64,000 nucleotides of DNA from Escherichia phage vB_Eco_Solly: sequence record OY720021. One strand, given 5' to 3'. Of the stretch, positions 1,580 through 60,265 are shown one piece after another. The position numbers were made by a program, and so were the translations under genes. Positions within the stretch are counted from its first letter, which is position 1, and every line of letters begins with the position of its first letter. Below the pieces are notes generated by a model. It saw only the letters and a list, made by a program, of their open reading frames with translations. It ran no database searches and had not been told where the DNA came from.

Positions 1580-1580
1580 A

Positions 1581-1647: not shown

Positions 1648-1661
1648 CTACAGAGGCTAAT

Positions 1662-2153: not shown

Positions 2154-2158
2154 AATGA

Positions 2159-2176: not shown

Positions 2177-2185
2177 CCTGCTTAA

Positions 2186-3810
<1,625 letters not shown>

Positions 3811-5968: not shown

Positions 5969-5986
5969 TTTTAAAGGTTAACACAA

Positions 5987-7552: not shown

Positions 7553-7565
7553 TCTTTGACGATTT

Positions 7566-7585
7566 AAGGGACCTTCGGGTCCCTT
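7566..7585 (+). terminator. hairpin with UUCG tetraloop after gene 23
   Basis: AAGGGACC-TTCG-GGTCCCTT followed by T-rich tract. Confidence 0.7.
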
Positions 7586-7600
7586 TAGTTGTTTTTATGG

Positions 7601-7608
7601 TATAAATA
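7601..7608 (+). promoter_or_regulatory. late promoter box TATAAATA (gene 24)
   Basis: exact consensus 28 nt upstream of gene 24 ATG. Confidence 0.65.
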
Positions 7609-7635
7609 AATCATATAAACTGAAAGGAAAGCGCA

Positions 7636-12662: not shown

Positions 12663-12691
12663 TAGATATATTTATTACATGGTATTTAGAC

Positions 12692-23079: not shown

Positions 23080-23109
23080 ACTATAACACAACATGAGGGA
23101 CTTGTAAAC
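23080..23109 (-). promoter_or_regulatory. early sigma70 promoter (GTTTAC -35, TATAGT -10) within a duplicated 53-bp module
   Basis: minus-strand GTTTAC...18 nt...TATAGT, then GAGG SD and ATG of the 96-aa ORF. Confidence 0.6.
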
Positions 23110-25166
23110 TACATTTTGAACTTTTTAGACATTCCGTTGATGTTAACCAAAGAAGCTAAGATTTGAGAAACTTCGTTTTCCTCTTCTTTTGATTCTTCTA
23201 CAAGGAATTGATTAAATCCAGTCATTGGACGAACTTCACCAGTTTCCATCAAATGATCGCCATCATATACTGATTCCTCTAATTGTTCAGAAGGAGGAAC
23301 GATTGTACCTTCGATTAGATACTTGTTATAAGCAGTTTCTTTCATAAAGTAAGTACTTACTTTATTAATCTTCAGTAAAATTCCACGTGGTAGAATAACT
23401 TCAGCTTCTGATGGAAATCCTGATAAATGACCTGGAACGATAACTTTGATTCGCTCAGCTCCTTTAATTACCATACCCACGCTAGTTTCAGCATCTTCAT
23501 TAGCATATGTAGAATGACTACCCATATGCATCAAATCTTCTGCATCAATGGAACCTTCTCCTTCACCAGAAAATACTGCGCCAGAATCATCTAGAGCCAT
23601 ATAGTTTTTACCATGCTCACCGAAGATATTTGGTTTAAGCGATGTGGATACGAAGTTCTTGAAATAGAACATTTTATTTTCAATGTTATGACGCAAAGTT
23701 TTAAAGGTAACTTCTTGCCCACGATAAAGAGTAGTTCCTGGAGGAAGAACTGAACCTTTAGCAAATGCAGAATCCAACGTCTCGATGTGTTTAATAGCTC
23801 GTTCCATATATTCTTCACGGGTAGAATCAGGTTTACCTAAAAGGAACGAGTTCATTTCAACATATGAATCTGCACAATAATCTTCAATTACATCAGACTC
23901 AGCCTGAGTTAATCCTTTTGGAGTTACTTCAGTGCTTGCGTATTCATATGCCTGAGCGGCAGATTCATTAATCAATTTATAAATGCCATTCATGACAAAT
24001 TGAATAATAGCTGTCTTTTCATCTGGTGTAGCTTTAGAACCTTTAACTAAATCATTGATAATTTTCTTAATAACATCAAAGCTATTAGAAATATTAATGT
24101 CAGCAAGATCGCTTAAAATTTTATCAGTTTTATAATCAAAGAATTCTTTATTCTTTAAATATTCTTGAGAACCTTGATATGTTATATCGCTCTGCAACTT
24201 GATAGATGGATCACGTAAACGTGCATGGGCTAATGCAATATGATTTCGGAAACTTTCTAGTTCATAATCGTTAGATTTAAAACGAGAAGCACTTCTCATA
24301 CCACCGATAGCTCCTTTGCTAAAGTTTGAACCAATCTGAATAACGCCAGAGTTCATCGGACCTTCTGCTTTATATACCGGAACTTTAGATTCAAACTCTT
24401 GATATTTCTTAGCAGCGAAGCTATCACCCTGAAGTGAAGCATCAACAGTAGAATATTGAGCTTGTGCTGCTAATCGACGACTAATTTTAGTTTTCTGAAT
24501 AACAGCTTGATCCGTGCGCTTATCATTTTCTAAAGCAATAGAAGCAGCAACAGCGACAGCTTTAGGAACAGCATTACCTGTTTTAACGTCTACATAAACA
24601 TCACCAACCTTTGATTCAACTTTTGTGAATAACTCAGTTGAAATAGGAGGTACACCTGGAATGTCTTCTAAATTGGCATTTTTACGGTAAACCATAATAT
24701 ATGCATATTTCTTATCATAGTCCCAGATTTCCTTTAAAAGAACATATCGACCTGCTCCTTTAGTACGTACTAAACGGTCAGCAATAACTTGCATTTGACG
24801 AGCTGCGCCATTTGTTTTACTTTTTAGTACGCGGAATAGGCATGCGTCGATTTTATACTGTTTCATTGTTTGAAGAGCAGTATCAAAAACAGCATTAATG
24901 ACGCCAATTGGATTTCCACCCAAGTTTCTAAGCTTGACTAACGATAATTTCTCATTAACACCTATCATTACGATATGCATCATTTTGTCGCCTGGCTTAA
25001 CGTTTTTATTCGTATCACCGCCAGAGGTGTATGTACAAAATCTAAATCCAGGAAGCACGCTTTCTTCACCGGCTTGAATAGCAAAAATTTGTGGTATTTT
25101 ATGCTTAGGATTTAAGTTAACAACCGGCGCCGAAGCGCCGTCAAATAATTCTGTAATAAGTTCCAT
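23109..25166 (-). CDS. Alt-like ADP-ribosyltransferase paralog (685 aa)
   Basis: N-terminus MELITELFD... shared with the neighbouring Alt; R-S-E type motifs YRGQ, STS, EAEVILPRG in C-terminal domain. Confidence 0.85.
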   Translation of the reverse strand: MELITELFDGASAPVVNLNPKHKIPQIFAIQAGEESVLPGFRFCTYTSGGDTNKNVKPGDKMMHIVMIGVNEKLSLVKLRNLGGNPIGVINAVFDTALQTMKQYKIDACLFRVLKSKTNGAARQMQVIADRLVRTKGAGRYVLLKEIWDYDKKYAYIMVYRKNANLEDIPGVPPISTELFTKVESKVGDVYVDVKTGNAVPKAVAVAASIALENDKRTDQAVIQKTKISRRLAAQAQYSTVDASLQGDSFAAKKYQEFESKVPVYKAEGPMNSGVIQIGSNFSKGAIGGMRSASRFKSNDYELESFRNHIALAHARLRDPSIKLQSDITYQGSQEYLKNKEFFDYKTDKILSDLADINISNSFDVIKKIINDLVKGSKATPDEKTAIIQFVMNGIYKLINESAAQAYEYASTEVTPKGLTQAESDVIEDYCADSYVEMNSFLLGKPDSTREEYMERAIKHIETLDSAFAKGSVLPPGTTLYRGQEVTFKTLRHNIENKMFYFKNFVSTSLKPNIFGEHGKNYMALDDSGAVFSGEGEGSIDAEDLMHMGSHSTYANEDAETSVGMVIKGAERIKVIVPGHLSGFPSEAEVILPRGILLKINKVSTYFMKETAYNKYLIEGTIVPPSEQLEESVYDGDHLMETGEVRPMTGFNQFLVEESKEEENEVSQILASLVNINGMSKKFKM

Positions 25167-25169: not shown

Positions 25170-27266
25170 TTATCCTTGAACGAACTTGTAAGGCATGTTT
25201 GTAATATCTATGCAAGACGCAATAATTCCAAGAGATGATTCTACTTTCTGTTTAACGTTTGATGAAACAAATGATGCAAAGTCAACTCTGTCTTCTATTT
25301 CAATATCACCTGTCATTGCAACCAATTCACCAGTTTCCATTAAATGGTCTCCGTCATAGATTACCGATTCAGTGAGCTCTTCCGTGGTCATAACTTCAGC
25401 TTGAATGAGTTTTGTATTATTAGATGTTGTTCCGTCATTATTAGAAGCATCAGTTATTTTATTAACTTTGACCATCAATCCACGTGGTAGAATAACTTCA
25501 GCTTCTGTTGCTATTCCGAGACTTCCTGGATATACAACATTAACTTTATGAGCTCCATCAATTGCCCATCCTATTTGAACTTTAACGTATTCAGGATTTT
25601 CTTTATACGCTCTTATTTCGTTTGGATTAATAGTTATTCCTTCTTCATTTTTATCAACTGTTAATTCGTTGCGAGCTTCTGGTTCTAAAAGACCAATACC
25701 AGCGTGTGTAATTCCAAAACGTCCAAAAATGATAGGAGTTAAAGAAGTAGATACAAAATTTCTAAAATAGAACACTTTATTTTTAACTAACGCTTCATAT
25801 ATAGGAGCAGTCATACTTTGAGCACGATAAACTGTAATGCCTTCTGGTATACGGTCACCATTTTCAAAAGCTGAATCTAAGTTATTTATAGCAGATTCAA
25901 TTTCTTTTTCACTCATTACATCATATCGTTCTGGATTGTAACGACCTAAAAGAAGATTATTGATGTCAGTATATCCTGAACCGCAATATTCTCTAATGCC
26001 ACGCTTTTGTGATGGAGTATATTTAGAACCATCGCGGGCAATAGTAATATCAATCATTGGACCAGCACCAATTCCAGAAAAACTGTAAATCATTCGTTTG
26101 AGGAATTTAGTTTTTGCTGCGTTCCAGGAATTTTTAGTTATTTCTTCCCAGACTTCATCTGGTTGTCCTTTACGATTTTTATTATGATTAGCAAGCCATT
26201 TATCTTTATAATCTTCAAAGAATTGATTTACAGCTGCTGCGTATTTCTCTAAACATTTTATTGAAGTAGTTGGTTCATTTTTAATTGCATTAAAAATTAC
26301 TTCTTTAATTTTTTCTGAAACTTCACCGACTTGACTCATTGGAAAGAATTTATAATCATAGTGAAGTTCATCTGCCGTTCCTTCAGCAATAATTTTTGCT
26401 GCCTTTGTTTTAGAAGCTAATGAATTAATTCCAATTTTCATTTCTTCTGCTTCGGGAATTAAAGGTGCAGTAGCTGGTTTATTAAAATTAGCTGCTGTAG
26501 ATTCATACTTCTGGAATAATTCACTTTCAAATCTAGAAGATTCCAATGACTGACTTTGTGCAATTGCTCTACGGGAAATTTTAACTTTAACGATTACGGC
26601 TTGGTCAGAACGTTTATCATTTTCTTGTGCAATTGATGCTGCAATTGCCTCATTTTTAGTTACTTGGGCTCCAGTATCTTTATTGATATAAACATCACCG
26701 ACTTTCGATTCAACTTTAGTAAAGAGCTCGGTACTAATTTCCGGAACTCCTGGAATGTCTTCTAGTGATACATTTTTGCGATGTATAAGAATATATGCAT
26801 ACTTTTTATCGTAATCCCAGAGTTCCTTAAGAAGGACGTATCTACCACCTGAACGACTACGGATAAGTCTATCAGCAATAACTTGAATTTGTCGAGCTTG
26901 ACCGGCGGTTTTAGACTTAAGAATACGAAGCATACAAGCATCAATTTTATATTGACGCATTGTTTGCATTGCAACAGTAAAAACTGAATTGATATAATTA
27001 ATTGGGCTTGGACCAAGACCTTTTAATTTAGCAATTGAACCTTTAGCAGTTAATGTAAAAGGAACAATATGCATCATTTTATCGCCCATCTTTAAATCGC
27101 GATTAGTATCACCTCCAGATGTATAGGTACATAAACGAAAGCCTGGTTGTTCAATTGCATCATCAACATGAACTGAAAAAATTTGTGGTATTTTCTTCTT
27201 TGGATTTAAGTTTGTAATCGGAAGAGTAGTATCTTCGTCAAATAATTCTGTAATGAGTTCCATCAT
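25170..27266 (-). CDS. alt: Alt ADP-ribosyltransferase (698 aa), virion-packaged type
   Basis: R-S-E motifs YRAQ, FVSTSL, EAEVILPRG; TATAAATA late box on minus strand at 27287-27294; adjacent to ligase gene as in T4. Confidence 0.85.
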   Translation of the reverse strand: MMELITELFDEDTTLPITNLNPKKKIPQIFSVHVDDAIEQPGFRLCTYTSGGDTNRDLKMGDKMMHIVPFTLTAKGSIAKLKGLGPSPINYINSVFTVAMQTMRQYKIDACMLRILKSKTAGQARQIQVIADRLIRSRSGGRYVLLKELWDYDKKYAYILIHRKNVSLEDIPGVPEISTELFTKVESKVGDVYINKDTGAQVTKNEAIAASIAQENDKRSDQAVIVKVKISRRAIAQSQSLESSRFESELFQKYESTAANFNKPATAPLIPEAEEMKIGINSLASKTKAAKIIAEGTADELHYDYKFFPMSQVGEVSEKIKEVIFNAIKNEPTTSIKCLEKYAAAVNQFFEDYKDKWLANHNKNRKGQPDEVWEEITKNSWNAAKTKFLKRMIYSFSGIGAGPMIDITIARDGSKYTPSQKRGIREYCGSGYTDINNLLLGRYNPERYDVMSEKEIESAINNLDSAFENGDRIPEGITVYRAQSMTAPIYEALVKNKVFYFRNFVSTSLTPIIFGRFGITHAGIGLLEPEARNELTVDKNEEGITINPNEIRAYKENPEYVKVQIGWAIDGAHKVNVVYPGSLGIATEAEVILPRGLMVKVNKITDASNNDGTTSNNTKLIQAEVMTTEELTESVIYDGDHLMETGELVAMTGDIEIEDRVDFASFVSSNVKQKVESSLGIIASCIDITNMPYKFVQG

Positions 27267-35609: not shown

Positions 35610-37024
<1,415 letters not shown>

Positions 37025-37898: not shown

Positions 37899-38395
37899 AA
37901 AGTTTTAATAACCTCTATAATATCGTCTTGAGAAAGACCGTTAATTAAAATATGATGTTCAGCTGGAGATTTAGAAATTTTAAAGCATGCCTCAACATCT
38001 TCTGCCATATCCGATGCACTACGATTTGGATTACTAATTCCAAGACGATGTTTTCCCGTTAAAGGATTAACGATGATATAGCATTTGCAGCTATTGATAT
38101 GAACATTAGGTTGAGTCTGATTAATGAACACTTCACAATCATACTTAGCGAGTTGATTTTCTAAAAAGACTTTCATCTCTTCAACCGCATCAGGAAGCAT
38201 ATCACGGGCTTGCTCAAGACGACGATTTCGATATTCTTTAATGGTCGTTTTCCGCTTGACTTGCTTAGCTAAATCTTTCTTAAGATCGGTGATATATCCA
38301 ACTCGACGATTTCCTTTGAATACAGAAATCCCATCTGTAGTATCACCGTATGCTTCAACGACCATTTCAGTAGTAATAAGCTGCAAATCCATCAT
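37889..38395 (-). CDS. alc: Alc-like protein (host transcription shutoff on cytosine DNA), assigned by position and size
   Basis: 168 aa between pseT cluster and rnlA as in T4; early promoter module at 38424-38453. Confidence 0.7.
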   Translation of the reverse strand: MMDLQLITTEMVVEAYGDTTDGISVFKGNRRVGYITDLKKDLAKQVKRKTTIKEYRNRRLEQARDMLPDAVEEMKVFLENQLAKYDCEVFINQTQPNVHINSCKCYIIVNPLTGKHRLGISNPNRSASDMAEDVEACFKISKSPAEHHILINGLSQDDIIEVIKTLCN

Positions 38396-38423
38396 AAAGT
38401 CCTCATGTTATGTCAGTAAGACT

Positions 38424-38453
38424 ACTATAACACAACACGAGGGACTTGTAAAC
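38424..38453 (-). promoter_or_regulatory. early sigma70 promoter, second copy of the duplicated 53-bp module (upstream of alc)
   Basis: identical to 23057-23109 apart from one substitution. Confidence 0.6.
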
Positions 38454-38456
38454 AGC

Positions 38457-40044
<1,588 letters not shown>

Positions 40045-40071
40045 AATAAAATGGGCCTTACGGCCCACTCC

Positions 40072-41250
40072 TTAAAAGTATTTTTTAAAACTCATCATAA
40101 CTTTATCATCAACATCATTATCAATCTGTGCAACAAGATAAGATGACAGTTCTACTTCTTGTGGCGCGGATTGAACATTATCAGAATTAAGATATTCACG
40201 AATCCAAGGATATGGATGTTTAACCGGAGCATCGGTAATTGGGTATGGAAGACCACACTGTTTCATACGAGATACAGTTAAGTAATCAATAAAGCTCCAC
40301 ATGCTATTTGTATTTAATCCAGGAACATCGCCATCTTTAAATAAATGAACTGCCCAATCTTTTTCTTGGCGGTTAACTTCCATGAAAATATCAACTGCTT
40401 CTTGTTCACACTCTTGAGCAATTTTAACCCATTCATCGCCGTCAGTGCCAAGTTGAAGTTGACGAATAATATATTGGGTGCCTTTAAGATGAAGCTGCTC
40501 ATCACGTGCAATGAACTTCATAATCTTGGCATTACCTTCCATGATTTCCATGTTCTTATGGAAGTTAAAGGTACATGCGAAAGATACATAAAAACGAATA
40601 GCTTCCAATGCGTTGATTACATGCAAGCAGAGGTAAAGACATTTCATTAAAGCACGTTTAGCTTCGACTTCTTGTTTAATAGCTCGGTTTAAACGAAAGT
40701 CGGCATCGGGAGATTCTTTAGCTAGTTCTACAAATTCTTTAGCATTTTCCCATTCACGGGTTTTAGTCAGAACATCATCATAATAGCGTCCAATAGATTC
40801 GGCTCGTTTCATGATTGCTTCATCTAATACAATCTCATCAAATACCTTCGATGGATCAGTATAAAGATTTCGCATGATATGTGTATATGAACGACTGTGA
40901 ATAGTTTCACTAAAAGTCCATGTAGCAACCCATGTATCAAGACTTGGGTCTGAAATTAACGACATAAGTACAGCAGACGGTGCACGACCCTGAATGCTAT
41001 CTAGAAGTGATTGATACTTCAGGTTATTAGTAAAAATATCTTGCTGATATTGAGGAAGCTTGTTAAATTGCGCAGCATCCATCATTAAGTTTACTTCTTC
41101 AGGACGCCAGAAAAATGACAACTGCTTTTCGGTTAAATCTTCAAAAACTTTATGACGTTGAATATCATAACGCGCAATACCAAGACCTGAACCAAAAAAC
41201 ATAGGTTCTTTTAAAACATCAACTGGATTTGTATTAAAAACTGTGCTCAT
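40072..41250 (-). CDS. nrdB: ribonucleotide reductase small subunit, uninterrupted
   Basis: 392-aa continuous ORF; no group I intron. Confidence 0.95.
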   Translation of the reverse strand: MSTVFNTNPVDVLKEPMFFGSGLGIARYDIQRHKVFEDLTEKQLSFFWRPEEVNLMMDAAQFNKLPQYQQDIFTNNLKYQSLLDSIQGRAPSAVLMSLISDPSLDTWVATWTFSETIHSRSYTHIMRNLYTDPSKVFDEIVLDEAIMKRAESIGRYYDDVLTKTREWENAKEFVELAKESPDADFRLNRAIKQEVEAKRALMKCLYLCLHVINALEAIRFYVSFACTFNFHKNMEIMEGNAKIMKFIARDEQLHLKGTQYIIRQLQLGTDGDEWVKIAQECEQEAVDIFMEVNRQEKDWAVHLFKDGDVPGLNTNSMWSFIDYLTVSRMKQCGLPYPITDAPVKHPYPWIREYLNSDNVQSAPQEVELSSYLVAQIDNDVDDKVMMSFKKYF

Positions 41251-41301
41251 AAATTTTCCACTTAGTTAATAGATAGTGACTCGTCCATGAGTCAAATTAT
41301 A

Positions 41302-43566
41302 TCATAATTTACAGGATGAACAATCTTCAGCTTTTGGAGTTTCTATTTCATAATCATCAGTACCAGAACCATCGCGGGTATTATGATAATAGAAATTTTT
41401 TCCGCCAAAATACCAAAAATACAAAAGGTCATCAATCATTATTGACATTGGAACCTTTCCTTTTGGAAAAATCTGTGGGTCATAATATGTATTCGCCGAA
41501 GCTGATTGACAAACCCATTTCAGCATAATAGCTACCTGCGTAAGATAAGGTTTATTACCTTTCTTAGCTAATTTCCATGTATAATCATAGAGGTCTATGT
41601 TATGCTCAATATTGGGCACGACTTGATTAAAGGAGCCCTCTTTTGATTCTTTAACAGAGACTGGTCCACGTGGAGGCTCGATACCGTTTGTACTGTTAGA
41701 AACTTGGGAAGATGACTCACATGGCATAAGTGCTGATAATGTGCTATTACGGATGCCAAAGAGCTTAAGGTCTTCCCGCAGCGACGACCAGTCACAAACG
41801 TATTTTGGAGCTGCGATTTGGTCAATCTTTTTATTGTACCAGTCGATAGGTAATTCGCCTCGAGACCAACGAGTGTCTGAATAATATTCGCAAGGTCCTT
41901 TTTCTTTGGCGAGCTTAATGGATGCTTTAATGAGTCCATACTGTAATCTCTCAAATAGTTCATGTGTTAAATCGTTAGCATCTTCATAAGAAGCAAAGTT
42001 ACTTGCCAGCCAAGCTGCATAGTTAGTAACACCTACACCAAGGTTTCGACGCTTTTTAGCTTTTTCTGCTTCAGGAACTGGATATCCTTGGTAATCCAAA
42101 AGATTATCAAGAGCACGAACTTGAACTTCTGCCAATTCATTAATTTTATCTTGGTCTTGCCAATCGAAGTTATCCAGCACAAATGCAGATAACGTGCACA
42201 ATCCAATTTCAGCATCGGGGCTATTCACATCATTTGTTGGAATAGCAATTTCACAGCACAAGTTACTCTGACGAATAGGTGCCTTTTCACGAATAAACGG
42301 AGTATAGTTATTCGTATTATCAATGAACTGTACATAAATCCTTGCTGTTCCTGAACGTTCAGTCATGAGCAATTCAAATAGTTCACGGGCTTTAATACGC
42401 TTTTTACGAATATTAGGGTCTTTTTCTGCGGCTTCGTATAATTCACGGAAACGGTCTTGGTCTTTAAAATAAGAATAATAAAGCTCGCCACCCATTTCAT
42501 GCGGACTGAACAAAGTAATGTAATCGTTCTTTCCGAATCGTTCCATCATCAAATCATTCAGCTGAACACCATAATCCATATGACGAATGCGGTTTTCTTC
42601 TACGCCTTTGTTATTTTTCAAAACGAGAAGATTTTCAACTTCCAAATGCCAAATAGGATAATAAGCAGTAGCAGCGCCGCCACGAATTCCACCCTGTGAA
42701 CATGATTTAACTGCAGTCTGAAAATGTTTCCAAAAAGGAATAACACCAGTATGACGTACTTCACCCATGCCAATCTTAGAACCTTCAGCACGAATCATAC
42801 CAACATTAATACCAATTCCAGCGCGTTTAGAGATATATTCAACAATTGAAGCGGAAGCCTTATTGATAGACTTCAATGAATCACCTGCCTCAATAACAAC
42901 ACATGAACTAAACTGTCGAGTTGGAGTACGGCAACCAGCCATAATAGGAGTCGGCAATGAAATCTGTCGAGTAGATACTGCTTCATAAAAACGAATAACA
43001 TGTTTTAATCTATCAACAGGTTCATCTTGATGCAGTGCCATTCCAATAGTCATAAATGCAAACTGCGGAGTTTCATAAATTTGACCAGTGGTTTTATCTT
43101 TAACTAGATATTTTTCTTTTAATTGCATCGCCCCGGAATAAGTAAATTCCATATCCCGTTCGTGCTTAATTTTTGATTCTAAAAATGTAATTTCTTCTGC
43201 TGAATATTTTGACAATAATTCAGGGTCATATTTACCTGCATTTACACAGTAAGAAATATGGTCAATAAATGAACGCGGTTCATACTGCCCATAAACATGC
43301 TTACGAAGAGCAAACATTAAACAGCGTGCAGCTACATATTGATAATCAGGTTCTTCAACCGAAATAGAATTCGCAGCAGCCTTAATGACAATAGTCTGAA
43401 TATCATCAGTTGTCATTCCATCACGGAGATAAGATTTAATATTTTCATATAATTCATAAGGATCTACTGATGTTCCCTCAGCTGCCCAAGATAAAACTTT
43501 AATAATTTTTTGTGGGTCAAAGCTCTGAGAAACACCACTACTTTTGATAACATTAATTAATTGCAT
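41302..43566 (-). CDS. nrdA: ribonucleotide reductase large subunit
   Basis: 754 aa; active-site region SNLCCEIA; T4 NrdA length. Confidence 0.97.
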   Translation of the reverse strand: MQLINVIKSSGVSQSFDPQKIIKVLSWAAEGTSVDPYELYENIKSYLRDGMTTDDIQTIVIKAAANSISVEEPDYQYVAARCLMFALRKHVYGQYEPRSFIDHISYCVNAGKYDPELLSKYSAEEITFLESKIKHERDMEFTYSGAMQLKEKYLVKDKTTGQIYETPQFAFMTIGMALHQDEPVDRLKHVIRFYEAVSTRQISLPTPIMAGCRTPTRQFSSCVVIEAGDSLKSINKASASIVEYISKRAGIGINVGMIRAEGSKIGMGEVRHTGVIPFWKHFQTAVKSCSQGGIRGGAATAYYPIWHLEVENLLVLKNNKGVEENRIRHMDYGVQLNDLMMERFGKNDYITLFSPHEMGGELYYSYFKDQDRFRELYEAAEKDPNIRKKRIKARELFELLMTERSGTARIYVQFIDNTNNYTPFIREKAPIRQSNLCCEIAIPTNDVNSPDAEIGLCTLSAFVLDNFDWQDQDKINELAEVQVRALDNLLDYQGYPVPEAEKAKKRRNLGVGVTNYAAWLASNFASYEDANDLTHELFERLQYGLIKASIKLAKEKGPCEYYSDTRWSRGELPIDWYNKKIDQIAAPKYVCDWSSLREDLKLFGIRNSTLSALMPCESSSQVSNSTNGIEPPRGPVSVKESKEGSFNQVVPNIEHNIDLYDYTWKLAKKGNKPYLTQVAIMLKWVCQSASANTYYDPQIFPKGKVPMSIMIDDLLYFWYFGGKNFYYHNTRDGSGTDDYEIETPKAEDCSSCKL

Positions 43567-43883
43567 AAGTCCTCAACTTGAAAATCGTCTTTAAACAATC
43601 GGTTAACTATATGAGCTATTATATCACCATGACACGGCTTTGGTTTACATGTGCATCCTAGCCTCATTCCACGTAAAGGCTCTAAATGTGCTTTAGTTAT
43701 TTCTCCGGATTTAATTCGACGTATAAAATCTTTTTTGAATAATTCAATGGCAGCCTCCCGGCTGCCAGCATCTTTACCGACGTAATTTCCCCAAAATGTA
43801 CCACGGTGAATATTAACATCAAAGTCGGATTTATATTTATTCACTACCCGGCATAGACGGCCCGCGCGGTGATAATTCGTCAT
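43557..43883 (-). CDS. hypothetical Cys-containing protein (nrdA.1 position)
   Basis: 108-aa ORF with [11 protein letters not shown] cluster. Confidence 0.6.
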
Positions 43884-44100
43884 ATTGTTTTTCCGTTAAT
43901 ACAGTAATATCATAGTAACAATCGGAAGAAGTTTTAACTGTGGAAATTTTATTATCAAAATACTCACGAGTCATTTTATGAGTATAGTATTTTTTACCAT
44001 AAATGGTAATAGGCTGTTCTGGTCCTGGAACTTCTAACTCGCTTGGGTTAGGAAGTGTAAAAAGAACAACGCCAGAAGTATCTTTAAATCGTAAAATCAT
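43837..44100 (-). CDS. hypothetical protein (nrdA.2 position)
   Basis: 87-aa ORF. Confidence 0.55.
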
Positions 44101-44957
44101 ATTGCCATTTTCCCTTTAATTGCCGGATGCGATTCATAATTTTCAAGGATAAAATCTTTCGGTTTCATGTATTCAGTTAACCAGTAAAGCTGTGTTTCGG
44201 TGTCACAATTTCCAAACTCTATAGGCCAATCAATTTTAAGTTCACACAGTTCTTTAGGCTCACGACGTAAAATTTCTTTACATTGTTCTACGTGATTCAT
44301 ATAGATATGAGTATTACCACCAGAAAATATCAAATCTCCTGGGATAAGATTACACATCTTAGCCATAATATGCGTCAAGGCAGCGTACGAGGCAATGTTG
44401 AATGGCAAGCCCAAGAAAACATCTACACTTCTTTGGTACCACTGTAAATCAAGATAACCATTACGCACATTAAACTGATAGAACATATGACAGGGTGGTA
44501 ATGCCATTTGATTGATTTCAGCTGGATTCCATGCTGAAACGATTTGACGTCGATCAGTTGGTAATTTTTTAATACGATCAATAGTTTCAACTAATTGATC
44601 CACACCACCGAAATCACGCCATTGTTTACCATATATAGGACCCAGTTCACCACTATGATATCCTAGGTCTTTAGCTTGGTTTTCATAATTGTCATCCCAG
44701 ATAGTTTTACCTTGAATAAGACTACCGTGAGTAAGAAGACGTAAATCATTAACATTGGTAGAACCGGAAATAAACCATAAAAGCTCAGCAATGCATGCAT
44801 TCCAGGCGAGCTTCTTAGTTGTTACTGCAGGAAAACCTTTACTTAAATCCCAGCGTAATTTAGTACCGAACAAAGCAATTGTTCCTGTGCCCGTTCGGTC
44901 ATCGGTTTCATAGCCATTTTCAAAAATGTCTTTAATTAAATCTTGGTATTGTTTCAT
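44097..44957 (-). CDS. td: thymidylate synthase, uninterrupted
   Basis: 286-aa continuous ORF with catalytic-Cys motif [10 protein letters not shown]; no intron. Confidence 0.97.
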
Positions 44958-45002
44958 TTAGTACCTTATATAAATTATAATACATTTTATGAAGCTAAAT
45001 AA

Positions 45003-45350
45003 TCAATACGGTTTAGCATCAAATTTTCTCTCAATTTCAGGCGTGAAATATAATTCTTTACCGCGTTTGGAAAAGCGACCAATAATATGATAATTATTCT
45101 CATCAAACGTGATATTACCAATATCCATAGCTTTCAACCAAATATCGATATTTCTATCCAACTTTATGTCAAAATTCCAATACGGAGAACTATTACCGAA
45201 AATACTGCAAGCGGATTCAGTAAAACAACTACTATAAATCTTATCTTTAGGAACTACTAATTGATAGACACCTTTAATAAACTGAGGACCCTGCCATTTT
45301 GGTTGTTTCGTGTCTTTTTCTAATAGAATAGGGTAATAATTAAAATTCAT
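45003..45350 (-). CDS. hypothetical protein, 115 aa, lying between frd and td
   Basis: Intact ORF co-oriented with the frd-td operon; no motif recognised. Confidence 0.6.
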   Translation of the reverse strand: MNFNYYPILLEKDTKQPKWQGPQFIKGVYQLVVPKDKIYSSCFTESACSIFGNSSPYWNFDIKLDRNIDIWLKAMDIGNITFDENNYHIIGRFSKRGKELYFTPEIERKFDAKPY

Positions 45351-45369
45351 ATTTCCGCCACGCGTTATT

Positions 45370-46196
<827 letters not shown>

Positions 46197-46206
46197 ATTA
46201 TTTTCC

Positions 46207-46449
46207 TTAAACAGACTTTTTCACATTTTTCCAATCAGCTTTAAACTGCTCGACGTCAGAATGGTAAATCCAAAATCCTGCGCTTTCTCCATCCTCATAA
46301 AGAGGGCATCCATCACATTCATCTTCCCATCCCATATCACGTAAAAGTTGTTCAGCTTTTTCAACAAGTTCAGAATCTTTACCGATGATATTAAAATACC
46401 ATTTACCTTTAACTTCTGAATCTTTGATGCTCTGGCGTTGTAATCTCAT
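46207..46449 (-). CDS. hypothetical protein (frd.x region)
   Basis: 80-aa ORF. Confidence 0.55.
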   Translation of the reverse strand: MRLQRQSIKDSEVKGKWYFNIIGKDSELVEKAEQLLRDMGWEDECDGCPLYEDGESAGFWIYHSDVEQFKADWKNVKKSV

Positions 46450-46503
46450 TTTATTCTCCTTAGTTGATAGGGTAATAGTATCACACTACTACCCTGATGT
46501 AAA

Positions 46504-46869
46504 CTACTTTTTGAAAGTTTTTCGCAAAAGTTCAATAATTTCATCTACATTGTTTTCGTCAACAATGCAGTGAATTTTCGTTACGCCGGAAACCTTGTCT
46601 TCGACTTCATCTTCTTCAGAAGTCGATTCTTTATACTCACGAAAACAATGAAATTCGTCTTCACAAACGTTAAAGTAAAAATGCTTTCCATTTGCGCATT
46701 CAATGTGTTTTATTACTCTAAATCCATCAGCAGAGAAAGCTTCTTTAACTTCAAACCATCCGCCATTTTCTTGAATAATTTTAACTATTGCTGAATTAGA
46801 ACGTGGGCGATAATTAATAAATGTATCAATAAGTCTTGGAACAAGTTCATACTTTTTACCGATATACAT
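46504..46869 (-). CDS. hypothetical protein (frd.x region)
   Basis: 121-aa ORF. Confidence 0.55.
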   Translation of the reverse strand: MYIGKKYELVPRLIDTFINYRPRSNSAIVKIIQENGGWFEVKEAFSADGFRVIKHIECANGKHFYFNVCEDEFHCFREYKESTSEEDEVEDKVSGVTKIHCIVDENNVDEIIELLRKTFKK

Positions 46870-46913
46870 TTTCTTTTCCTCATTTTAATAGGGGCTTGAT
46901 AGCCCCTTGATAA

Positions 46914-47165
46914 TTACTGTTCAATAAATCCTGTGTAAAATTCTACATCTTCAGCATCCATACCGTCGCAGTATTCATTAACCATAAACTGTTTAAGACG
47001 ATCTAAAGGACCTTCAATAACAACTGAAACATTACAATTAGGATCATCTAATGCGCTTATGATACTAAGTTCAGGATAACGATTACGAATAATTTCTTCA
47101 ATATATTCAAAATCAACAACATCAATATCAATTTTAGCCATATTATTTTCCTCTTTAATTATCAA
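46914..47165 (-). CDS. hypothetical acidic protein
   Basis: 83-aa ORF preceded by early promoter at 47185-47214. Confidence 0.55.
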
Positions 47166-47184
47166 CAGTATTGCCGATAATTGT

Positions 47185-47214
47185 ATAGTACCACAGTATG
47201 CTTTGGTTGTAAAC
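47185..47214 (-). promoter_or_regulatory. early sigma70 promoter (GTTTAC ... TACTAT)
   Basis: minus-strand GTTTAC, 18-nt spacer, TACTAT upstream of ORF 46914-47165. Confidence 0.45.
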
Positions 47215-47245
47215 CGTTTTGTGAAAAAATTTTTGAAATAAAAAA

Positions 47246-47264
47246 GGGGACCCTAGAGGTCCCC
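47246..47264 (-). terminator. rho-independent terminator downstream of gene 32
   Basis: GGGGACC-CTAGA-GGTCCCC followed on minus strand by TTTTTTATTT. Confidence 0.8.
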
Positions 47265-47286
47265 AATTAATTAGTAATATAATCTG

Positions 47287-48195
47287 TTAAAGGTCATTCA
47301 AAAGGTCATCCAGGTCCGTGTCATCAGCACTAGATGAACTGCCAGAGCTTGAGCTCATAAAATCATCTTCAGTTTTTGTTTTGAAGTCATCAACATTGAA
47401 TGCATCCAAATCATCAGCAACTTTATCAGCTTTCTTAGCGGCAGTTGCTGCGGCACCACCCATAGCAGCAGTTCCCATAACTTGACTGAACTTAGTGCTC
47501 AGTTCTTCAAATGATTTGAATTTATCTTTAGAAGTCATTTCAGAAAGGTCAACCATTTGTTCGAACAGTTCTTTCTGGAAAGATTCATCGTCAATGTTTG
47601 GAATCGCAGATTGATTCAGGAATTTAGATTCGTCGTAGTTACTAAATCCAGAAACTTGTTTAACTTTTAGTACAAAGTTAGCACCTTCCCACGGACAAGT
47701 TACATCAACCGGAGTTTCACCCATTTCAACATCAACCGCAATCATTGCATTGATTTTATCCCAGATTTTCTTACCGAAACGGTATTTAAATACTTTACCT
47801 TCATTTTCTGGAGCAGCTGGGTCTTTTACTACAAGAATGTTAGCCCAGTAAGAAGTTTTACGTTTAACAAGACTGTACTCTTTATTGTCAGTGTTGTACA
47901 GATCATTTTTACTAATGTATTGACATACTGGGCAAGAATCGTAATCACCGTGGGTAGATGAACAATTTTCGATATACCATTTACCATTTTTCTTGAAACC
48001 GTGATTTACAAGAATTGCGAATGGTGCTTGTTCATCATTTTTAGACGGAAGAAAACGAATTACTGCTTGACCGTTACCCGCATTGTCGAGTTTCAGTTTC
48101 CACTCGCCTTTATCTTCAGAAGAAAAACCACCTTTATTTCCAGCCAGTTTAGCCATTTGCGCAGCGAGTTCAGCAGTAGATTTACGTTTAAACAT
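47287..48195 (-). CDS. 32: gp32 single-stranded DNA-binding protein
   Basis: 302 aa; zinc-binding Cys/His cluster; acidic Ser/Asp C-terminus; strong terminator downstream. Confidence 0.97.
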
Positions 48196-48294
48196 TTTTA
48201 TTTCCTTTTTAATTTAATTAACAGTTGGTGCTATGACGATGTATGACCTCATAGCTGGTCAGTGAGATAATTATAATCTATTTATAATAAGCAA

Positions 48295-48948
48295 TTAATA
48301 CTTGCAAGATTTCACAGTTTCAATGAAAACATTTTTAGCTTTCTGCGAATCAATATTTAAAATTTTTCTATAAGCCTTTAACTTTATAGAATAATTATTC
48401 CAGACTAAATTATCAGTCTGTTCATCATGTTTATCAATTATATTTAAAAATGAATCAAGCAAGATAAACGTCTCAAACGAAATTATATTCGATTGAAGTA
48501 GTTTAAAAATATAGCTTGATTGAACCTTTGGATTATACTCAAAGATTTCTTTAAAAGCAGAAACTTCAACTTTTTTACTAAAATAATAAATGTTGCGAAT
48601 ATCTTCTTCAAACTTAAATTTAATTTGTTTTAAGCGTCCGATATATTCACGATAAAACACAAGTGCATCAGCGTCAGAGATGTCACCAATCCAAGCATCT
48701 TGGTTAGCAACCAAATTACTTATAAAGATTAAAGCAAGTTCCTTTAATTTATATTTTTCTGATAACTTCTGGAAAAAATACTTATCCCTTCGCTTTTGAT
48801 AAGCGGCATCAGACACCCGCATGCACCAATTATACTTAATTACATCATACTTTCCATTCATGTGTTGTTTTATCATTAAGTATAATTTATAAACTGATTT
48901 ACCATCAATGTATCTTTCACCACCAGCAGGCATGCGGAGTTTAATCAT
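48295..48948 (-). CDS. 59: gp59 helicase loader
   Basis: 217 aa, T4 gp59 length. Confidence 0.93.
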   Translation of the reverse strand: MIKLRMPAGGERYIDGKSVYKLYLMIKQHMNGKYDVIKYNWCMRVSDAAYQKRRDKYFFQKLSEKYKLKELALIFISNLVANQDAWIGDISDADALVFYREYIGRLKQIKFKFEEDIRNIYYFSKKVEVSAFKEIFEYNPKVQSSYIFKLLQSNIISFETFILLDSFLNIIDKHDEQTDNLVWNNYSIKLKAYRKILNIDSQKAKNVFIETVKSCKY

Positions 48949-56287: not shown

Positions 56288-59200
56288 ATGGCTACTTTAA
56301 AACAAATACAATTTAAAAGAAGCAAAACCGCAGGTGCACGTCCTGCTGCTTCAGTATTAGCCGAAGGCGAATTGGCTATAAACTTAAAAGATAGAACAAT
56401 TTTTACTAAAGATGATTCAGGAAATATCATTGATTTAAGCATTTCCGCTGGCGGTAATATCAGTGGAAATATCACACAAACTGGAGATTATTTACAGAAC
56501 GGTACATACAATCTCAATGGAAATCAGTTTGTTTATGCAGGAAAATATATTGAATTTTTACCTAAAACAGCTGGTAATGGTGCGTGGGCAAATCAACACC
56601 TAAATAAAGCTCCTATCTTTACAGATTTAAGTTCAACTACTTCTATTTCAGAATATCATCCACTCATTAAGCAACGCTATAAAGATGGAACTTTTTCAGC
56701 GGGTACATTGGTTGCTGAAGGAAGTTTTAAGATTCATTACATCAATGAATCTGGGGATTCGAAATATTGGACTTTTAATCGTAATGGTAATTTCCAAGTT
56801 GACACAGGCGATTTATTTGTCAGCAAAGGTAATATTTCCGCTTCAGGCAATATTAATTCAGCTACTGGAATAGTTTCTGCTCCACAGATTAATACAAAAA
56901 CCATAGTTTTTGATACAAAGGCATTCGGACAATACGATTCGCAGTCATTAGTTCAATATGTTTATCCTGGAACAGGTGAAGAAAATGGTATAAACTATCT
57001 TCGTAAAGTTCGAGCTAAATCAGGCGGAACTATTTATCATGAAATCGCTTCAGCTCAAACTGGTAAGAATGATGAAATTTCTTGGTGGACCGGAAATACA
57101 CTTACTACTAAATTAATGGGTCTTCGTAATGATGGAGCAATGGTATTACGTCGTTCACTTGCTATTGGCACAATTACTGCTGACGAAAATACTAACAACT
57201 ATGGTTCTCCTACTCCAATGGGAGAAAGATATATTGCTTTGGGCGATGCCGCCACTGGTTTAAAATACGTCAAGCAGGGTGTTTATGATTTAGTAGGTAA
57301 TTGGAATTCTGTTGCTTCTATCACTCCTGACAGTTTCCGTAGTACTCGTAAAGGTATATTTGGTCGTTCCGAGGACCAAGGCGCAACTTGGATAATGCCT
57401 GGTACAAATGCTGCTCTCTTGTCTGTTCAAACCCAAGCTGATAATAACAATGCTGGAGACGGACAAACCCATATCGGGTACAATGCTGGCGGTAAAATGA
57501 ACCACTATTTCCGTGGTACAGGTCAGATGAATATCAATACCCAACAAGGTATGGAAATTAACCCGGGTATTTTAAAATTGGTAACTGGCTCTAATAAAGT
57601 ACAGTTTTATGCTGACGGCGGTATTACATCTGTTAAGCAGCTTTCAATATATAATGGCGTATATTTAGCAGCTAATAATTCTACTGCTGGGCTAACATTC
57701 GCTCCAACTACTACAGTTGATGGCACTAAGCAAATTTTGTGGGAAGGTGGTACTCGTGCTGGGCAGAATAAAAGCTACGTAACTGTTAAAGCATGGGGTA
57801 ATTCATTTAACGCATCCGGCGATCGTACTCGTGAAACTGTATTTGAAGTTAGTGACGGGCAAGGATATTATTTTTATTCACAGCGTTTGGCTCCAAGTGG
57901 CTCTGAAACTACTGGGCCTGTTGTAACCCAGTTCAATGGACAAGTTAATGCTAGAGGGAGCATTATCACCGATGGAAGTCTTAGAGTTAATGGATTAAGT
58001 ACATTATCCGGACAAGTTACTATGGATAACGGGCTTGTTTTATCCGGCGGTGGTTCTATTACCGGTCAAGTTAAAATTGGTAATACCGTAGATGCTTTCC
58101 GTATTTACAATGCTGAATATGGAGCTATTTTCCGTCGTTCTGAAGCGTCTTTGCATATTATACCTACACTTAAAGATGCAGGTGAAAGTGGCGGTATTTC
58201 TAACCTTCGCCCATTGAGCATCTCACTTAACAATGGTATGGTTCAAATGCGCCATTCTGTTACGTTAGGTGATGATGGTGCAGGCGGTAATATGGTGACG
58301 GTTGATAATGATTCTAAAGTTATGGTAATGACGACTAATAGCCGTATTAGTCCTAACTTCCGTATGCAAATTGGACAGTCGTCTTATATTGATGTGGAAT
58401 GTACTGATGCTGTGAGACCTGCTGGAGCCGGTTCTTTTGCTTCACAAAATAATGAAAATGTACGTGCGCCGTTCTATATGAATATTGATAGAACTGATAC
58501 TAGTACATATGTTCCTATTGTGAAACAAAGATACGTTCAAAATAATAGTTGCTATTCTATTGGTACTTTAATTAATGGTGGTAACTTTAGAGTTCATTAT
58601 CACGAAGGTGGTGACGGCGTTTCTACTGGCGCAATTATAAAGGATTTAGGTTGGGAATTTAATAAAAACGGTGATTTTTATTCTCCTGGTAAATTAGGCG
58701 CTGGTAATGTTCGTATTGGTACGGATGGTAATATCACTGGCGGTTCATTACCTAACTTTGCTAACTTGAACTTGACATTAGACCGTAAAGTCAATACCCG
58801 AATGGTTTCTTATTCAGGTACTGGCGGTTGGTATAAATTAGCCACTGTAACAATGCCACAATCCACTTCAACCGTCACATTCGAAATTGCTGGTGGTAAT
58901 GGATATAATATCAACATCCCACACCAATGCGTTACTTCGAAAATCGTTTTAAGAACTTCGAACAATAACCCGAAAGGTATTAACGCTGTTGTTTGGTCGA
59001 TGGATACCGATCAGGGTATTAAGAATGTTGCAACGGTTAATACATCAGGCGATGTTTATGACATCTATGTAAACGTTGGTACTTATGCTCAGGCGTTAGC
59101 AGTTTCTTATTATGCTACTCCTAATGCTACCATTAATCAGATATTTGCAACGGACCAACCGGGTGCAACAGAAACTGCGGTTGAACTTCCTGAGACGGCT

Positions 59201-60235
59201 ATTCAAGGACAGGTTGCTAGTGTTCTGAACAACTTGGCTCCTACCCCTAACGGTGTGAAGCGTTATGAAGCCGATTCTGAAATAGCTATTAATAGCCAAA
59301 CCGGTATTCGTATCAGAAGCAATGCCGATAAAACTGGTTCTGTGGCTACAATGTTACGAAATGACGGCGGTAGTTTTTATATTCTGTTTACAGATAAAAA
59401 TGACACCGATGGCGCAGCAACTGTTAATGGTGATTGGAATAGTAAACGTCCTTTCGCAATTAACTTAACAACCGGCGAAGTGATGATGAATAATGGCATA
59501 GCTGTTCGCAGCGCTGCTTTATTCTATAATAGCATAAACGTCAAAGATAATGGTTCTATTAACTTTGATAAATCAGGTGCTAACCCGAGAAATATGAGAA
59601 TATTTCATGCTGGCGATGCTTCTCGCGGTAACCGTATTGAAATTGCCGATGAAACTAACTATATTGCTTACTTTGAAAAGACTCCAGGTGGAGCTAACCG
59701 CTTTGTAGTAAATAATGCTACTGTAGCTGGTGTTAACCAAATGAATTCATTTGGTATTAATATCAATAACGCACTTGGTGGAAATAGTATAGCATTTGGT
59801 GATAATGATACCGGAATTAAACAATCCGCTGACGGAGTTCTTGATATCATTACTAATGCCGCACGCCGAATGAGATTCCGAACGGGTGACACTTATTCTG
59901 ACATGAATATAAATGCCCCAAACGTTTATATTCGTTCTGATATTCGTTTGAAATCTAATTTCAGACCTATTGAAAATGCTCTTGAAAAGGTTGAACAGCT
60001 TGATGGTTTAATCTATGATAAAGCTGACTATATAGGCGGTGAAATTGTTCAAACTGAAGCGGGTATTGTGGCTCAAACACTGCAAGATGTTTTACCAGAA
60101 GCAGTTCGTGAAGTTGAAGATATTAAGGGTAATAAAATACTCACTGTTTCTTCTCAATCCCAGATTGCTCTTCTGGTTGAAGCTGTGAAAACACTTTCTT
60201 CTCGTGTAAAAGAACTTGAATCTAAACTTATGTAA
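56288..60235 (+). CDS. 37: long tail fiber distal subunit gp37, T2-type with C-terminal intramolecular chaperone domain
   Basis: 1315 aa (longer than T4 gp37); C-terminal ~100 aa carries SDIRLK autoprocessing-type motif and a coiled coil. Confidence 0.93.
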
Positions 60236-60236
60236 A

Positions 60237-60254
60237 AGAGGGCTTCGGCCCTCT
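60237..60254 (+). promoter_or_regulatory. stem-loop with UUCG tetraloop between genes 37 and 38
   Basis: AGAGGGC-TTCG-GCCCTCT then ATTTTT. Confidence 0.6.
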
Positions 60255-60265
60255 AAGGATTTTTA

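What the first reader, a model, noticed from the sequence alone, without database searches (positions are those of the whole stretch)
40072..44957. nrdB and td are uninterrupted: the T4 group I introns are absent
Both genes are single continuous ORFs (392 and 286 aa) with intact active-site motifs. T4 interrupts td and nrdB with self-splicing introns encoding homing endonucleases, so this genome shows the intron-less state at both sites. No endonuclease ORF is seen near either gene.
Basis: partly seen in the sequence, partly recalled or inferred. Interest (0 to 1): 0.4.

Follow-up and report, generated by a model that had tools for sequence, protein, structure and literature searches.

The report
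Intron-less td and nrdB genes
This T4-like phage carries uninterrupted thymidylate synthase and ribonucleotide reductase small-subunit genes with empty intron sites, which is the common, already documented state among T4 relatives (phage T2 and RB18 have it), so the finding is correct but ordinary.

Summary
On the minus strand, nrdB (40072-41250, 392 aa) and td (44097-44957, 286 aa) are single ORFs with complete catalytic motifs. Alignment with T4 shows clean absence of the 598-nt nrdB intron (empty site between 40575|40574) and the 1017-nt td intron (44409|44408). The mobE/nrdB.1 cassette is also missing; a 51-nt spacer sits between nrdA and nrdB. No trace of either intron, I-TevI, I-TevIII or MobE occurs anywhere in the 64-kb window.

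The window is a Tequatrovirus, 97% identical to RB18-like phages. Its gene layout here matches classical phage T2. In the phage collection the td junction is contiguous in 610 records and the nrdB junction in 1036. Full-length T4-type introns occur in only 197 and 118 records. Published surveys already list T2, RB14, RB15, RB18, RB26, RB32 and RB51 as intron-free and call T4 the outlier.

A close relative, Pu-Krd-SF6, carries both introns inside window-type exons with short T4-like co-conversion tracts. The window's alleles are therefore genuine vacant homing sites.

One correction: a GIY-YIG endonuclease gene does abut nrdB. It is denA (EndoII), identical to T4 DenA, and is not a homing endonuclease. 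Verdict: already known, low interest.

The parts
40072..41250 (-). nrdB, class Ia ribonucleotide reductase beta subunit, 392 aa, uninterrupted
   Evidence: ORF; PF00268 E=7.9e-37; aligns to E. coli R2 with the conserved metal-site and tyrosine motifs; 1179 nt, same length as T2 and RB18 nrdB
40574..40575 (-). empty nrdB intron insertion site (sense nt 676|677, inside Cys226 codon T|GT)
   Evidence: T4 598-nt intron maps as a clean gap here. The 60 nt downstream are identical to T4 exon 2. There are two changes (-2, -5) in the 10 nt upstream.
40588..40590 (-). positions -16 to -14 upstream of the nrdB insertion site, where I-TevIII cuts its homing site
   Evidence: [quoted passage not shown] The window sequence here is identical to T4 exon 1. 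Cleavage itself was not tested.
41125..41129 (-). nrdB nt 122-126, the position where MobE nicks T2 nrdB
   Evidence: Nick sites were mapped in T2 (PMC2790892). Window nrdB nt 90-160 is 100% identical to T2 and differs from T4 at 14 of 71 positions.
41251..41301 (-). 51-nt nrdA-nrdB spacer where T4 carries mobE and nrdB.1 (about 700 bp)
   Evidence: blastn break: 55 nt in the window against 700 nt in T4. The spacer is identical to T2. It holds a weak 6-bp hairpin whose fold is not significant, z=-1.09.
41302..43566 (-). nrdA, 754 aa, uninterrupted (no intein or inserted endonuclease gene)
   Evidence: ORF; ATP-cone, all-alpha and barrel domains; same 2265-nt length as T4 nrdA
43557..43883 (-). 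nrdA.1 (DUF4326)
43837..44100 (-). nrdA.2 (DUF5496)
44097..44957 (-). td, thymidylate synthase, 286 aa, uninterrupted, RB18-type allele
   Evidence: ORF; PF00303 E=1.8e-96; aligns 1-286 to T4 TS 1TIS; 96.6% nt identity to RB18, 84% to T4, 79% to T2
44408..44409 (-). empty td intron insertion site (sense nt 549|550, between Gly183 and Leu184 codons)
   Evidence: T4 1017-nt intron maps as a clean gap here
44431..44435 (-). CAAAG at -27 to -23, the position of the I-TevI cleavage motif CAACG in T4
   Evidence: C1 and G5, the bases critical for I-TevI, are retained (PMC5009752). Cleavage was not tested.
39634..40068 (-). denA, endonuclease II (GIY-YIG), 3 nt downstream of nrdB; not a homing endonuclease
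   Evidence: PF01541; phrog_1111 endonuclease E=2.3e-65; 144/144 aa identical to T4 DenA; the same gene occupies the same position in T4, RB18 and T2
45003..45350 (-). 115-aa ORF between frd and td (RB32ORF229c type), absent from T4 where frd and td overlap; no nuclease signature

Best explanation
The window comes from a Tequatrovirus of the RB18/T2 type. Its td and nrdB genes are ordinary intron-less alleles, and its nrdA-nrdB spacer lacks mobE. Both genes are translated directly into functional thymidylate synthase and RNR beta subunit without RNA splicing. The two junctions are vacant homing sites. In a mixed infection with an intron-carrying relative, I-TevI would be expected to cut td 23-25 nt upstream of 44409|44408. 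I-TevIII would be expected to cut nrdB 14-16 nt upstream of 40575|40574, and T4 MobE to nick nrdB near nt 122-126. Recombinational repair would then copy the intron in, together with a short tract of donor exon. What is shown: absence of the introns, the exact empty sites, the identity of the layout with T2 and RB18, and the existence of natural intron-plus derivatives of window-type alleles. What is inferred: susceptibility of these particular sites to cleavage, and whether the sites were never invaded or were emptied again by recombination.
For: Clean 1017-nt and 598-nt gaps fall exactly at the T4 intron boundaries, and the reading frames are intact. No intron, I-TevI, I-TevIII or MobE similarity exists anywhere in the window. 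An Rfam e-value scan finds Intron_gpI in the T4 td intron (40.3 bits, E=1e-7) but nothing in window 38000-48500. T2 and RB18 have the same gene order and gene lengths. The nrdA-nrdB spacer and the MobE nick region are 100% identical to T2. The 101-nt junction-spanning queries are contiguous in 610 (td) and 1036 (nrdB) phage records. Full-length introns occur in 197 and 118 records. Pu-Krd-SF6, 96.8% identical over the region, carries both introns. Its nrdB is window-type throughout, including the variable segment (95.8% to the window against 54% to T2), except for 56 T4-like nt just upstream of the intron. Its td is window-type at nt 1-300 and from +6 onward, and T4/T2-like in between. Literature: T4 is the outlier with 15 homing endonucleases (PMC2988022). 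Intron-encoded endonucleases are listed only for T4, T6, RB3 and LZ2 among the T-even type genomes (PMC2993671 Table 5).
Against: Nothing contradicts the absence of the introns. Predicted susceptibility is less certain for td. The 50-nt homing region differs from T4 at 13 positions, all synonymous, including a change in the central triplet of the cleavage motif (CAACG to CAAAG). Many CNNNG variants are poor I-TevI substrates (PMC5009752). In Pu-Krd-SF6 the cleavage-site region was overwritten by donor sequence, so it does not prove that a CAAAG allele was the recipient.
Confidence: 0.93

Rival explanations
1. [quoted passage not shown]
For: Introns are scattered among genomes 96-97% identical to the window over this region. 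Of the 40 best hits, 31 match as one collinear piece. Nine are split into several pieces; those with informative annotation show split nrdB, td or nrdA genes with endonuclease ORFs. The cyclical gain and loss model is discussed for phage endonucleases in PMC2988022.
Against: The window shows no T4-like co-conversion tract beside either empty site, unlike Pu-Krd-SF6. Its flanks carry the RB18/T2-type polymorphisms instead. Loss by recombination with an intron-less allele would erase the tract too, so this history cannot be excluded from one genome.
Confidence: 0.12
2. The RB18-type td allele is refractory to I-TevI. Synonymous recoding at the cleavage site (Arg CGC to AGA, Ser TCA to AGT) and around the insertion site would keep the intron out.
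For: All 13 differences from T4 in the 50-nt homing region are synonymous, and two are codon-family switches at the cleavage site. I-TevI cleaves many CNNNG variants poorly (PMC5009752). The -1 base is C rather than the T found at the 5' splice junction in T4, T2 and Pu-Krd-SF6.
Against: The critical C1 and G5 are retained. T2 differs from T4 at 5 of 20 positions in -8 to +12, against 6 for the window. T4 x T2 crosses show I-TevI-mediated recombination initiated in td (PMC2790892). Divergence from T4 is not concentrated at the site: exon 1 overall is 84% identical. Intron-plus td genes with window-type exon 2 (Pu-Krd-SF6) and with the AGT Ser codon beside an intron (Pinarejo) exist.
Confidence: 0.12
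3. The uninterrupted genes are an assembly or sequence artefact, such as collapse of the introns.
For: None found.
Against: The junctions are exact to the base with frames intact. The same contiguous junctions occur in hundreds of independently sequenced phages, including T2 and RB18.
Confidence: 0.01

Closest known systems
Phage T2 (AP018813) nrd-td region
   Same: Gene order and gene lengths match, except denA, which T2 annotates from a later start (411 vs 435 nt): denA, nrdB (1179 nt, uninterrupted), a 51-nt spacer, nrdA, nrdA.1, nrdA.2, td (861 nt, uninterrupted), a 348-nt ORF, frd. The nrdA-nrdB spacer and nrdB nt 90-160 are 100% identical.
   Different: td is a different allele, 79% nt identity to T2 with 44 aa differences. 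nrdB is 92% identical, with a divergent segment around nt 500-620.
Enterobacteria phage RB18 (NC_054906) and relatives (JK1, vB_Eco_EL, slur07)
   Same: The region is collinear at 96.7-97.6% nt identity and matches as one uninterrupted piece. RB18 is annotated with single nrdB and td genes. td is 96.6% identical and the td homing region differs only at position -1.
   Different: RB18 carries segD between genes 23 and 24; the window does not. RB18 has extra ORFs between frd and frd.1.
Phage T4 (NC_000866) td and nrdB with group I introns, I-TevI, defunct I-TevIII and mobE
   Same: Orthologous genes lie in the same order. Td is 286 aa in both. DenA is identical. nrdB exon 2 is about 97% identical.
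   Different: T4 has the 1017-nt td intron with I-TevI, the 598-nt nrdB intron with truncated I-TevIII, and mobE plus nrdB.1 between nrdA and nrdB. T4 lacks the 115-aa ORF between frd and td. T4 NrdB is 388 aa against 392 aa here.
Escherichia phage Pu-Krd-SF6 (PQ759886)
   Same: Window-type region at 96.8% identity, with the same 51-nt nrdA-nrdB spacer and the 115-aa ORF.
   Different: It carries a 1016-nt td intron with I-TevI and a 1091-nt nrdB intron with an 810-nt endonuclease ORF, flanked by T4-like co-conversion tracts. It shows the occupied state of the same alleles.

Membership tests
Thymidylate synthase (ThyA/Td, PF00303) | Full-length match to the family profile and to a solved phage TS | tested here: met
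   PF00303 322.8 bits, profile 1-266 of 266; 1TIS E=8.6e-172 over residues 1-286
Thymidylate synthase (ThyA/Td, PF00303) | Catalytic cysteine in the PPCH motif and the conserved [16 protein letters not shown] substrate-binding segment | tested here: met
   PPCH with Cys156; [16 protein letters not shown] is identical to T4
Class Ia RNR beta subunit (NrdB, PF00268) | Profile match plus the conserved motifs that carry the di-iron ligands, the radical tyrosine and the C-terminal tail | tested here: met
   PF00268 127.6 bits. Alignment to E. coli R2 (1PIY, E=1.8e-125) conserves LLDSIQ, SETIHSRSY, NALEAIRF, ARDEQLH and SSYLV. Assignment of individual ligands to these motifs rests on my general knowledge of E. 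coli R2.
Group I intron of the T4 td or nrdB type | Non-coding insert at the known insertion site with similarity to the T4 intron or the group I core | tested here: not met
   Clean gaps at both sites. blastn of both introns against the window gives only chance hits of 32 nt or less. There is no Intron_gpI hit at E<=10 in 38000-48500, whereas the T4 td intron gives 40.3 bits in the same type of scan. Rfam does not detect the T4 nrdB intron at all, so for nrdB the evidence is the alignment.
Intron-encoded or free-standing homing endonuclease next to td or nrdB (I-TevI, I-TevIII, MobE) | ORF with similarity to these proteins inside or beside the genes | tested here: not met
   tblastn of I-TevI, T4 I-TevIII, MobE and NrdB.1 gives a best E of 0.32. 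The nrdA-nrdB spacer is only 51 nt. Hef (phage U5) and full-length RB3 I-TevIII were not used as queries, but no unassigned ORF of suitable size exists in 39600-45400.
I-TevI homing site (intron-less td) | Contiguous exon junction with a CNNNG motif (C1 and G5 critical) at -27 to -23 | tested here: met
   CAAAG at 44431-44435 at the T4 spacing; requirement taken from PMC5009752
I-TevI homing site (intron-less td) | Actual binding and cleavage by I-TevI | not testable with these tools
   There are 6 of 20 differences from T4 in -8 to +12 and 5 in -27 to -9. The biochemical consequence is unknown.
I-TevIII homing site (intron-less nrdB) | Contiguous exon junction with conserved sequence at the -14/-16 cleavage positions | tested here: met
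   Only -2 and -5 differ from T4 within 25 nt upstream, and the 60 nt downstream are identical. Cleavage positions come from PMC1865063. Cleavage itself is not testable here.
MobE target (T2-type nrdB 5' region) | Sequence identity to the T2 nrdB region nicked at nt 122-126 | tested here: met
   nt 90-160 are 100% identical to T2; nick mapping from PMC2790892. Nicking of this phage was not tested.
DenA / endonuclease II (GIY-YIG) | Orthology to T4 DenA at the conserved position downstream of nrdB | tested here: met
   144/144 aa identity; PF01541; phrog_1111; same position in T4 and RB18

The most novel reading that the evidence does not exclude
The RB18-type td allele could be an I-TevI-refractory allele. 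Purely synonymous recoding of the cleavage site (CGC to AGA, TCA to AGT), of the -1 base and of the binding region may have been selected because it blocks or slows intron invasion. That would be a natural case of a phage gene escaping a homing endonuclease without changing its protein.
Probability: 0.1. Interest if true: 0.35.

Novelty: already known. Interest (0 to 1): 0.08.

Why it matters
It matters little on its own. Variable presence of the td and nrdB introns among T-even phages has been described since the late 1980s (my recollection of that literature, not checked here), and reviews state that T4 is the outlier (PMC2988022, PMC2993671). The useful outcome is practical. The exact empty sites are now located. 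The alleles are typed: td is RB18-type, and the nrdB 5' end and spacer are T2-type. A natural intron-plus counterpart, Pu-Krd-SF6, is identified. Together these make a ready pair for studying co-conversion tract lengths or I-TevI tolerance of a heavily recoded site.

Tried and rejected
1. The Rfam gathering-threshold scan of the window gave 0 hits. I first took this as evidence against introns. The positive control on T4 DNA carrying both introns also gave 0 hits, so that negative is uninformative. At the e-value threshold only the td intron core is detected in T4, and the nrdB intron is never detected.

3. The promoter and terminator scan of 39500-46000 gave counts no higher than shuffled sequence. 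The spacer hairpin fold is not significant, z=-1.09.

4. A regex scan for canonical GIY-YIG and HNH motifs in all window ORFs gave only two hits, inside a 519-aa and a 717-aa ORF segment at about 12728 and 27170. I judged these spurious.

5. The primary survey paper (Sandegren and Sjoberg 2004, J Biol Chem) and Sandegren et al. 2005 (PMC1275590) are not held in the library. I relied on reviews that cite them.
Full report
**What is there**

All genes in 36-48 kb lie on the minus strand. The order is T4-like:
- rnlA 38457-39617
- denA 39634-40068
- nrdB 40072-41250 (392 aa)
- nrdA 41302-43566 (754 aa)
- nrdA.1 43557-43883
- nrdA.2 43837-44100
- td 44097-44957 (286 aa)
- a 115-aa ORF 45003-45350
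- frd 45370-45951
- gene 32 47287-48195

Megablast places the region in Tequatrovirus. The best hits are vB_Eco_EL and JK1 at 97.6%, and RB18 at 96.7%.

**Checking the observation**

Both ORFs have the stated coordinates and lengths.
- Td matches PF00303 end to end (E=1.8e-96). It aligns over residues 1-286 with the T4 enzyme structure 1TIS and keeps the PPCH cysteine at position 156.
- NrdB matches PF00268. It aligns with E. coli R2 and conserves LLDSIQ, SETIHSRSY, NALEAIRF, ARDEQLH and SSYLV. From general knowledge of R2, these motifs hold the metal ligands, the radical tyrosine and the C-terminal tyrosine.

I fetched T4 133000-148000 with its annotation and aligned it to the window.
- The td alignment breaks cleanly at sense nt 549|550 (window 44409|44408, Gly183|Leu184). 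There T4 has 1017 extra nt, beginning TAATTGAGG and ending CATAATG.
- The nrdB alignment breaks at sense nt 676|677 (window 40575|40574, inside the Cys226 codon). There T4 has 598 extra nt.
- T4 also has about 700 bp (nrdB.1 and mobE) where the window has a 51-nt spacer.

blastn of both introns and of the mobE region, and tblastn of I-TevI, T4 I-TevIII, MobE and NrdB.1, find nothing above chance in the whole 64 kb.

**A control that mattered**

The Rfam scan at gathering thresholds found nothing in the window. It also found nothing in the T4 locus that carries both introns, so that negative carries no weight. At the e-value threshold, Rfam finds Intron_gpI in the T4 td intron (40.3 bits, E=1e-7, below the 50-bit gathering score). 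It does not find the nrdB intron. The same kind of scan over window 38000-48500 shows no Intron_gpI hit. The alignment is the decisive evidence; Rfam only adds weak support for td.

**The one inaccurate statement**

The ORF 3 nt downstream of nrdB (39634-40068) has a GIY-YIG domain and matches phrog_1111, annotated as endonuclease. It is 144/144 aa identical to T4 DenA, endonuclease II. The same gene sits in the same place in T4, RB18 and T2. The T4 record describes it as the enzyme that starts degradation of cytosine-containing DNA, not as a homing endonuclease.

I also examined the 115-aa ORF between frd and td.
- No Pfam hit and a PHROG of unknown function.
- A small family of 17 representatives with no nuclease motif among its invariant residues.

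It shows no nuclease signature.

**How common is this state**

Classical phage T2 (AP018813) has the same layout with matching gene lengths (its denA is annotated from a later start). This includes uninterrupted nrdB (1179 nt) and td (861 nt), the 51-nt spacer and the 348-nt ORF next to frd. RB18 has it too.

| Query against the phage collection | Records |
|---|---|
| 101-nt td junction, contiguous at 80% coverage or more | 610 |
| 101-nt nrdB junction, contiguous at 80% coverage or more | 1036 |
| T4 td intron, 80% coverage or more | 197 |
| T4 nrdB intron, 80% coverage or more | 118 |
| Whole 5.8-kb region, 80% coverage or more | 594 |

Edgell et al. 2010 write that T4 is an oddity with 15 homing endonucleases and that most genomes have few insertions (PMC2988022). 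Table 5 of Petrov et al. 2010 lists intron-encoded endonucleases only for T4, T6, RB3 and LZ2 among the T-even type genomes. It lists none for T2, RB14, RB15, RB18, RB26, RB32 or RB51 (PMC2993671). The intron-less state at both sites is therefore the documented norm.

**Are the empty sites real homing sites?**

*nrdB.* The 60 nt downstream of the site are identical to T4 exon 2. Within 25 nt upstream only -2 and -5 differ. The positions where I-TevIII cuts (14 and 16 bp upstream; PMC1865063) are unchanged. Window nrdB nt 90-160 and the nrdA-nrdB spacer are 100% identical to T2. MobE nicks T2 nrdB at nt 122-126 (PMC2790892).

*td.* The allele is RB18-type. It is 96.6% identical to RB18, 84% to T4 and 79% to T2.
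- In the 50 nt from -30 to +20 it differs from T4 at 13 positions, all synonymous. The peptide [16 protein letters not shown] is unchanged.
- The I-TevI cleavage motif CAACG becomes CAAAG. This keeps the critical C1 and G5 (PMC5009752).
- The Arg and Ser codons at the cleavage site have switched codon families (CGC to AGA, TCA to AGT).
- T2 differs from T4 at 5 of 20 positions in the -8 to +12 binding region; the window differs at 6. T4 x T2 crosses show I-TevI-initiated recombination in td.

Cleavage cannot be tested in silico, so susceptibility of td is an inference.

**A natural experiment**

Pu-Krd-SF6 (PQ759886) is 96.8% identical to the window across the region. It carries a 1016-nt td intron with I-TevI and a 1091-nt nrdB intron with an 810-nt endonuclease ORF.
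- Its nrdB exons are window-type throughout. This includes the distinctive variable segment at nt 501-620 (95.8% to the window, 54% to T2). The exception is the 56 nt just upstream of the intron, which are T4-like.
- Its td is window-type at nt 1-300 (94%) and from +6 onward (94-95%). It is T4/T2-like from about nt 300 to +5.

I read this as the footprint expected from homing with co-conversion between the cleavage site and the insertion site. It shows that window-type alleles have received both introns in nature. The donor tract overwrites the td cleavage site, so it does not show that a CAAAG site itself was cut. Pinarejo (PP925831) carries a 319-nt td intron without an endonuclease ORF, next to a CAACGCAGT site. 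That site combines the T4-type Arg codon with the window-type Ser codon.

**History**

The window shows no T4-like tract beside either empty site. That fits a lineage that was never invaded. It fits equally a lineage whose intron was replaced by recombination with an intron-less phage. One genome cannot separate these two histories.

**Wider context in the window**

Relative to T4, the window also lacks three more homing endonuclease genes:
- segD: 60 nt in the window against 789 nt in T4 at 7563|7624
- segE: break at 12678|12692
- segG: between gene 32 and gene 59, near 48258-48294

All six T4 homing-endonuclease loci in this stretch are empty. By collinearity with T4 and RB18 there is no unexplained insert of endonuclease-gene size, but not every ORF was profile-scanned.

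**Verdict**

The feature is an already known, majority genotype of T-even phages, so interest is low. The only reading with any novelty is that the heavily recoded td site resists I-TevI. I give this about 10%, and it needs a cleavage assay.

Noticed in passing
window 39634-40068 (-): denA (endonuclease II, GIY-YIG) lies 3 nt downstream of nrdB and is 144/144 aa identical to T4 DenA, although the neighbouring 5' part of nrdB is only 84% identical to T4 at the nucleotide level.
   Followed up: yes
[not shown]
   Followed up: partly
window 7563-7624, 12678-12692, 48258-48294: The T4 free-standing homing endonuclease genes segD, segE and segG are all absent at their T4 positions. RB18, otherwise collinear, does carry segD. 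Together with I-TevI, I-TevIII and mobE, all six T4 homing-endonuclease loci in this 64-kb stretch are empty.
   Followed up: partly
window 23109-25166 and 25170-27266 (-): Two full-length ORFs (685 and 698 aa) lie in tandem at the alt position. T4 has one alt gene plus the short remnants alt.-1 and alt.-2, which its annotation describes as an old partial duplication. Only part of this stretch aligns to T4 alt, at 68-93%. The two ORFs were not run against protein family profiles.
   Followed up: no
window 36704-37024 (-): A 106-aa ORF (phrog_2364, unknown function; RB18 notes it as similar to RB69ORF231c / RB32ORF217c) is inserted between pseT and pseT.1 relative to T4.
   Followed up: no
window nrdB sense nt about 500-620 (window about 40630-40750) and td sense nt about 690-861 (window 44097-44270): Both genes contain sharply divergent mosaic segments, about 50% nt identity to T4 inside genes otherwise 85-100% identical. 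The nrdB segment makes the protein 4 aa longer than in T4. The td 3' end differs, and td overlaps nrdA.2 by 4 nt here instead of being separated by about 20 nt as in T4 and T2.
   Followed up: partly
L008 (Pu-Krd-SF6, PQ759886) td 6089-7965 and nrdB 973-3242: This intron-plus relative has window-type exons with short T4-like co-conversion tracts: about 250 nt upstream and 5 nt or less downstream of the td intron, and about 56 nt upstream of the nrdB intron. It is a clean natural record of homing into these alleles.
   Followed up: yes
L009 (Pinarejo, PP925831) td 1003-2182: Its td carries a 319-nt intron with no endonuclease ORF. The record annotates three small hypothetical ORFs over the intron.
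   Followed up: partly
L001 (T4) 5459-6056 and 10548-11564: Method note: Rfam release 15 at gathering thresholds detects neither T4 group I intron. At the e-value threshold it finds only the 3' core of the td intron (40.3 bits against a 50-bit gathering score). Rfam negatives should not be read as absence of phage introns that carry ORFs.
   Followed up: yes
one search hits H4/H5 (UFV-AREG1): This close relative annotates nrdA as two pieces (nrdA_1, nrdA_2) together with a homing endonuclease, which suggests a further insertion inside nrdA that the window lacks.
   Followed up: no
window about 56400-61000: The stretch corresponding to genes 37 and 38 is only 73-77% identical to T4, or does not align, while it matches RB18 at about 93%. 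RB18 annotates these genes as T2/K3-like.
   Followed up: no
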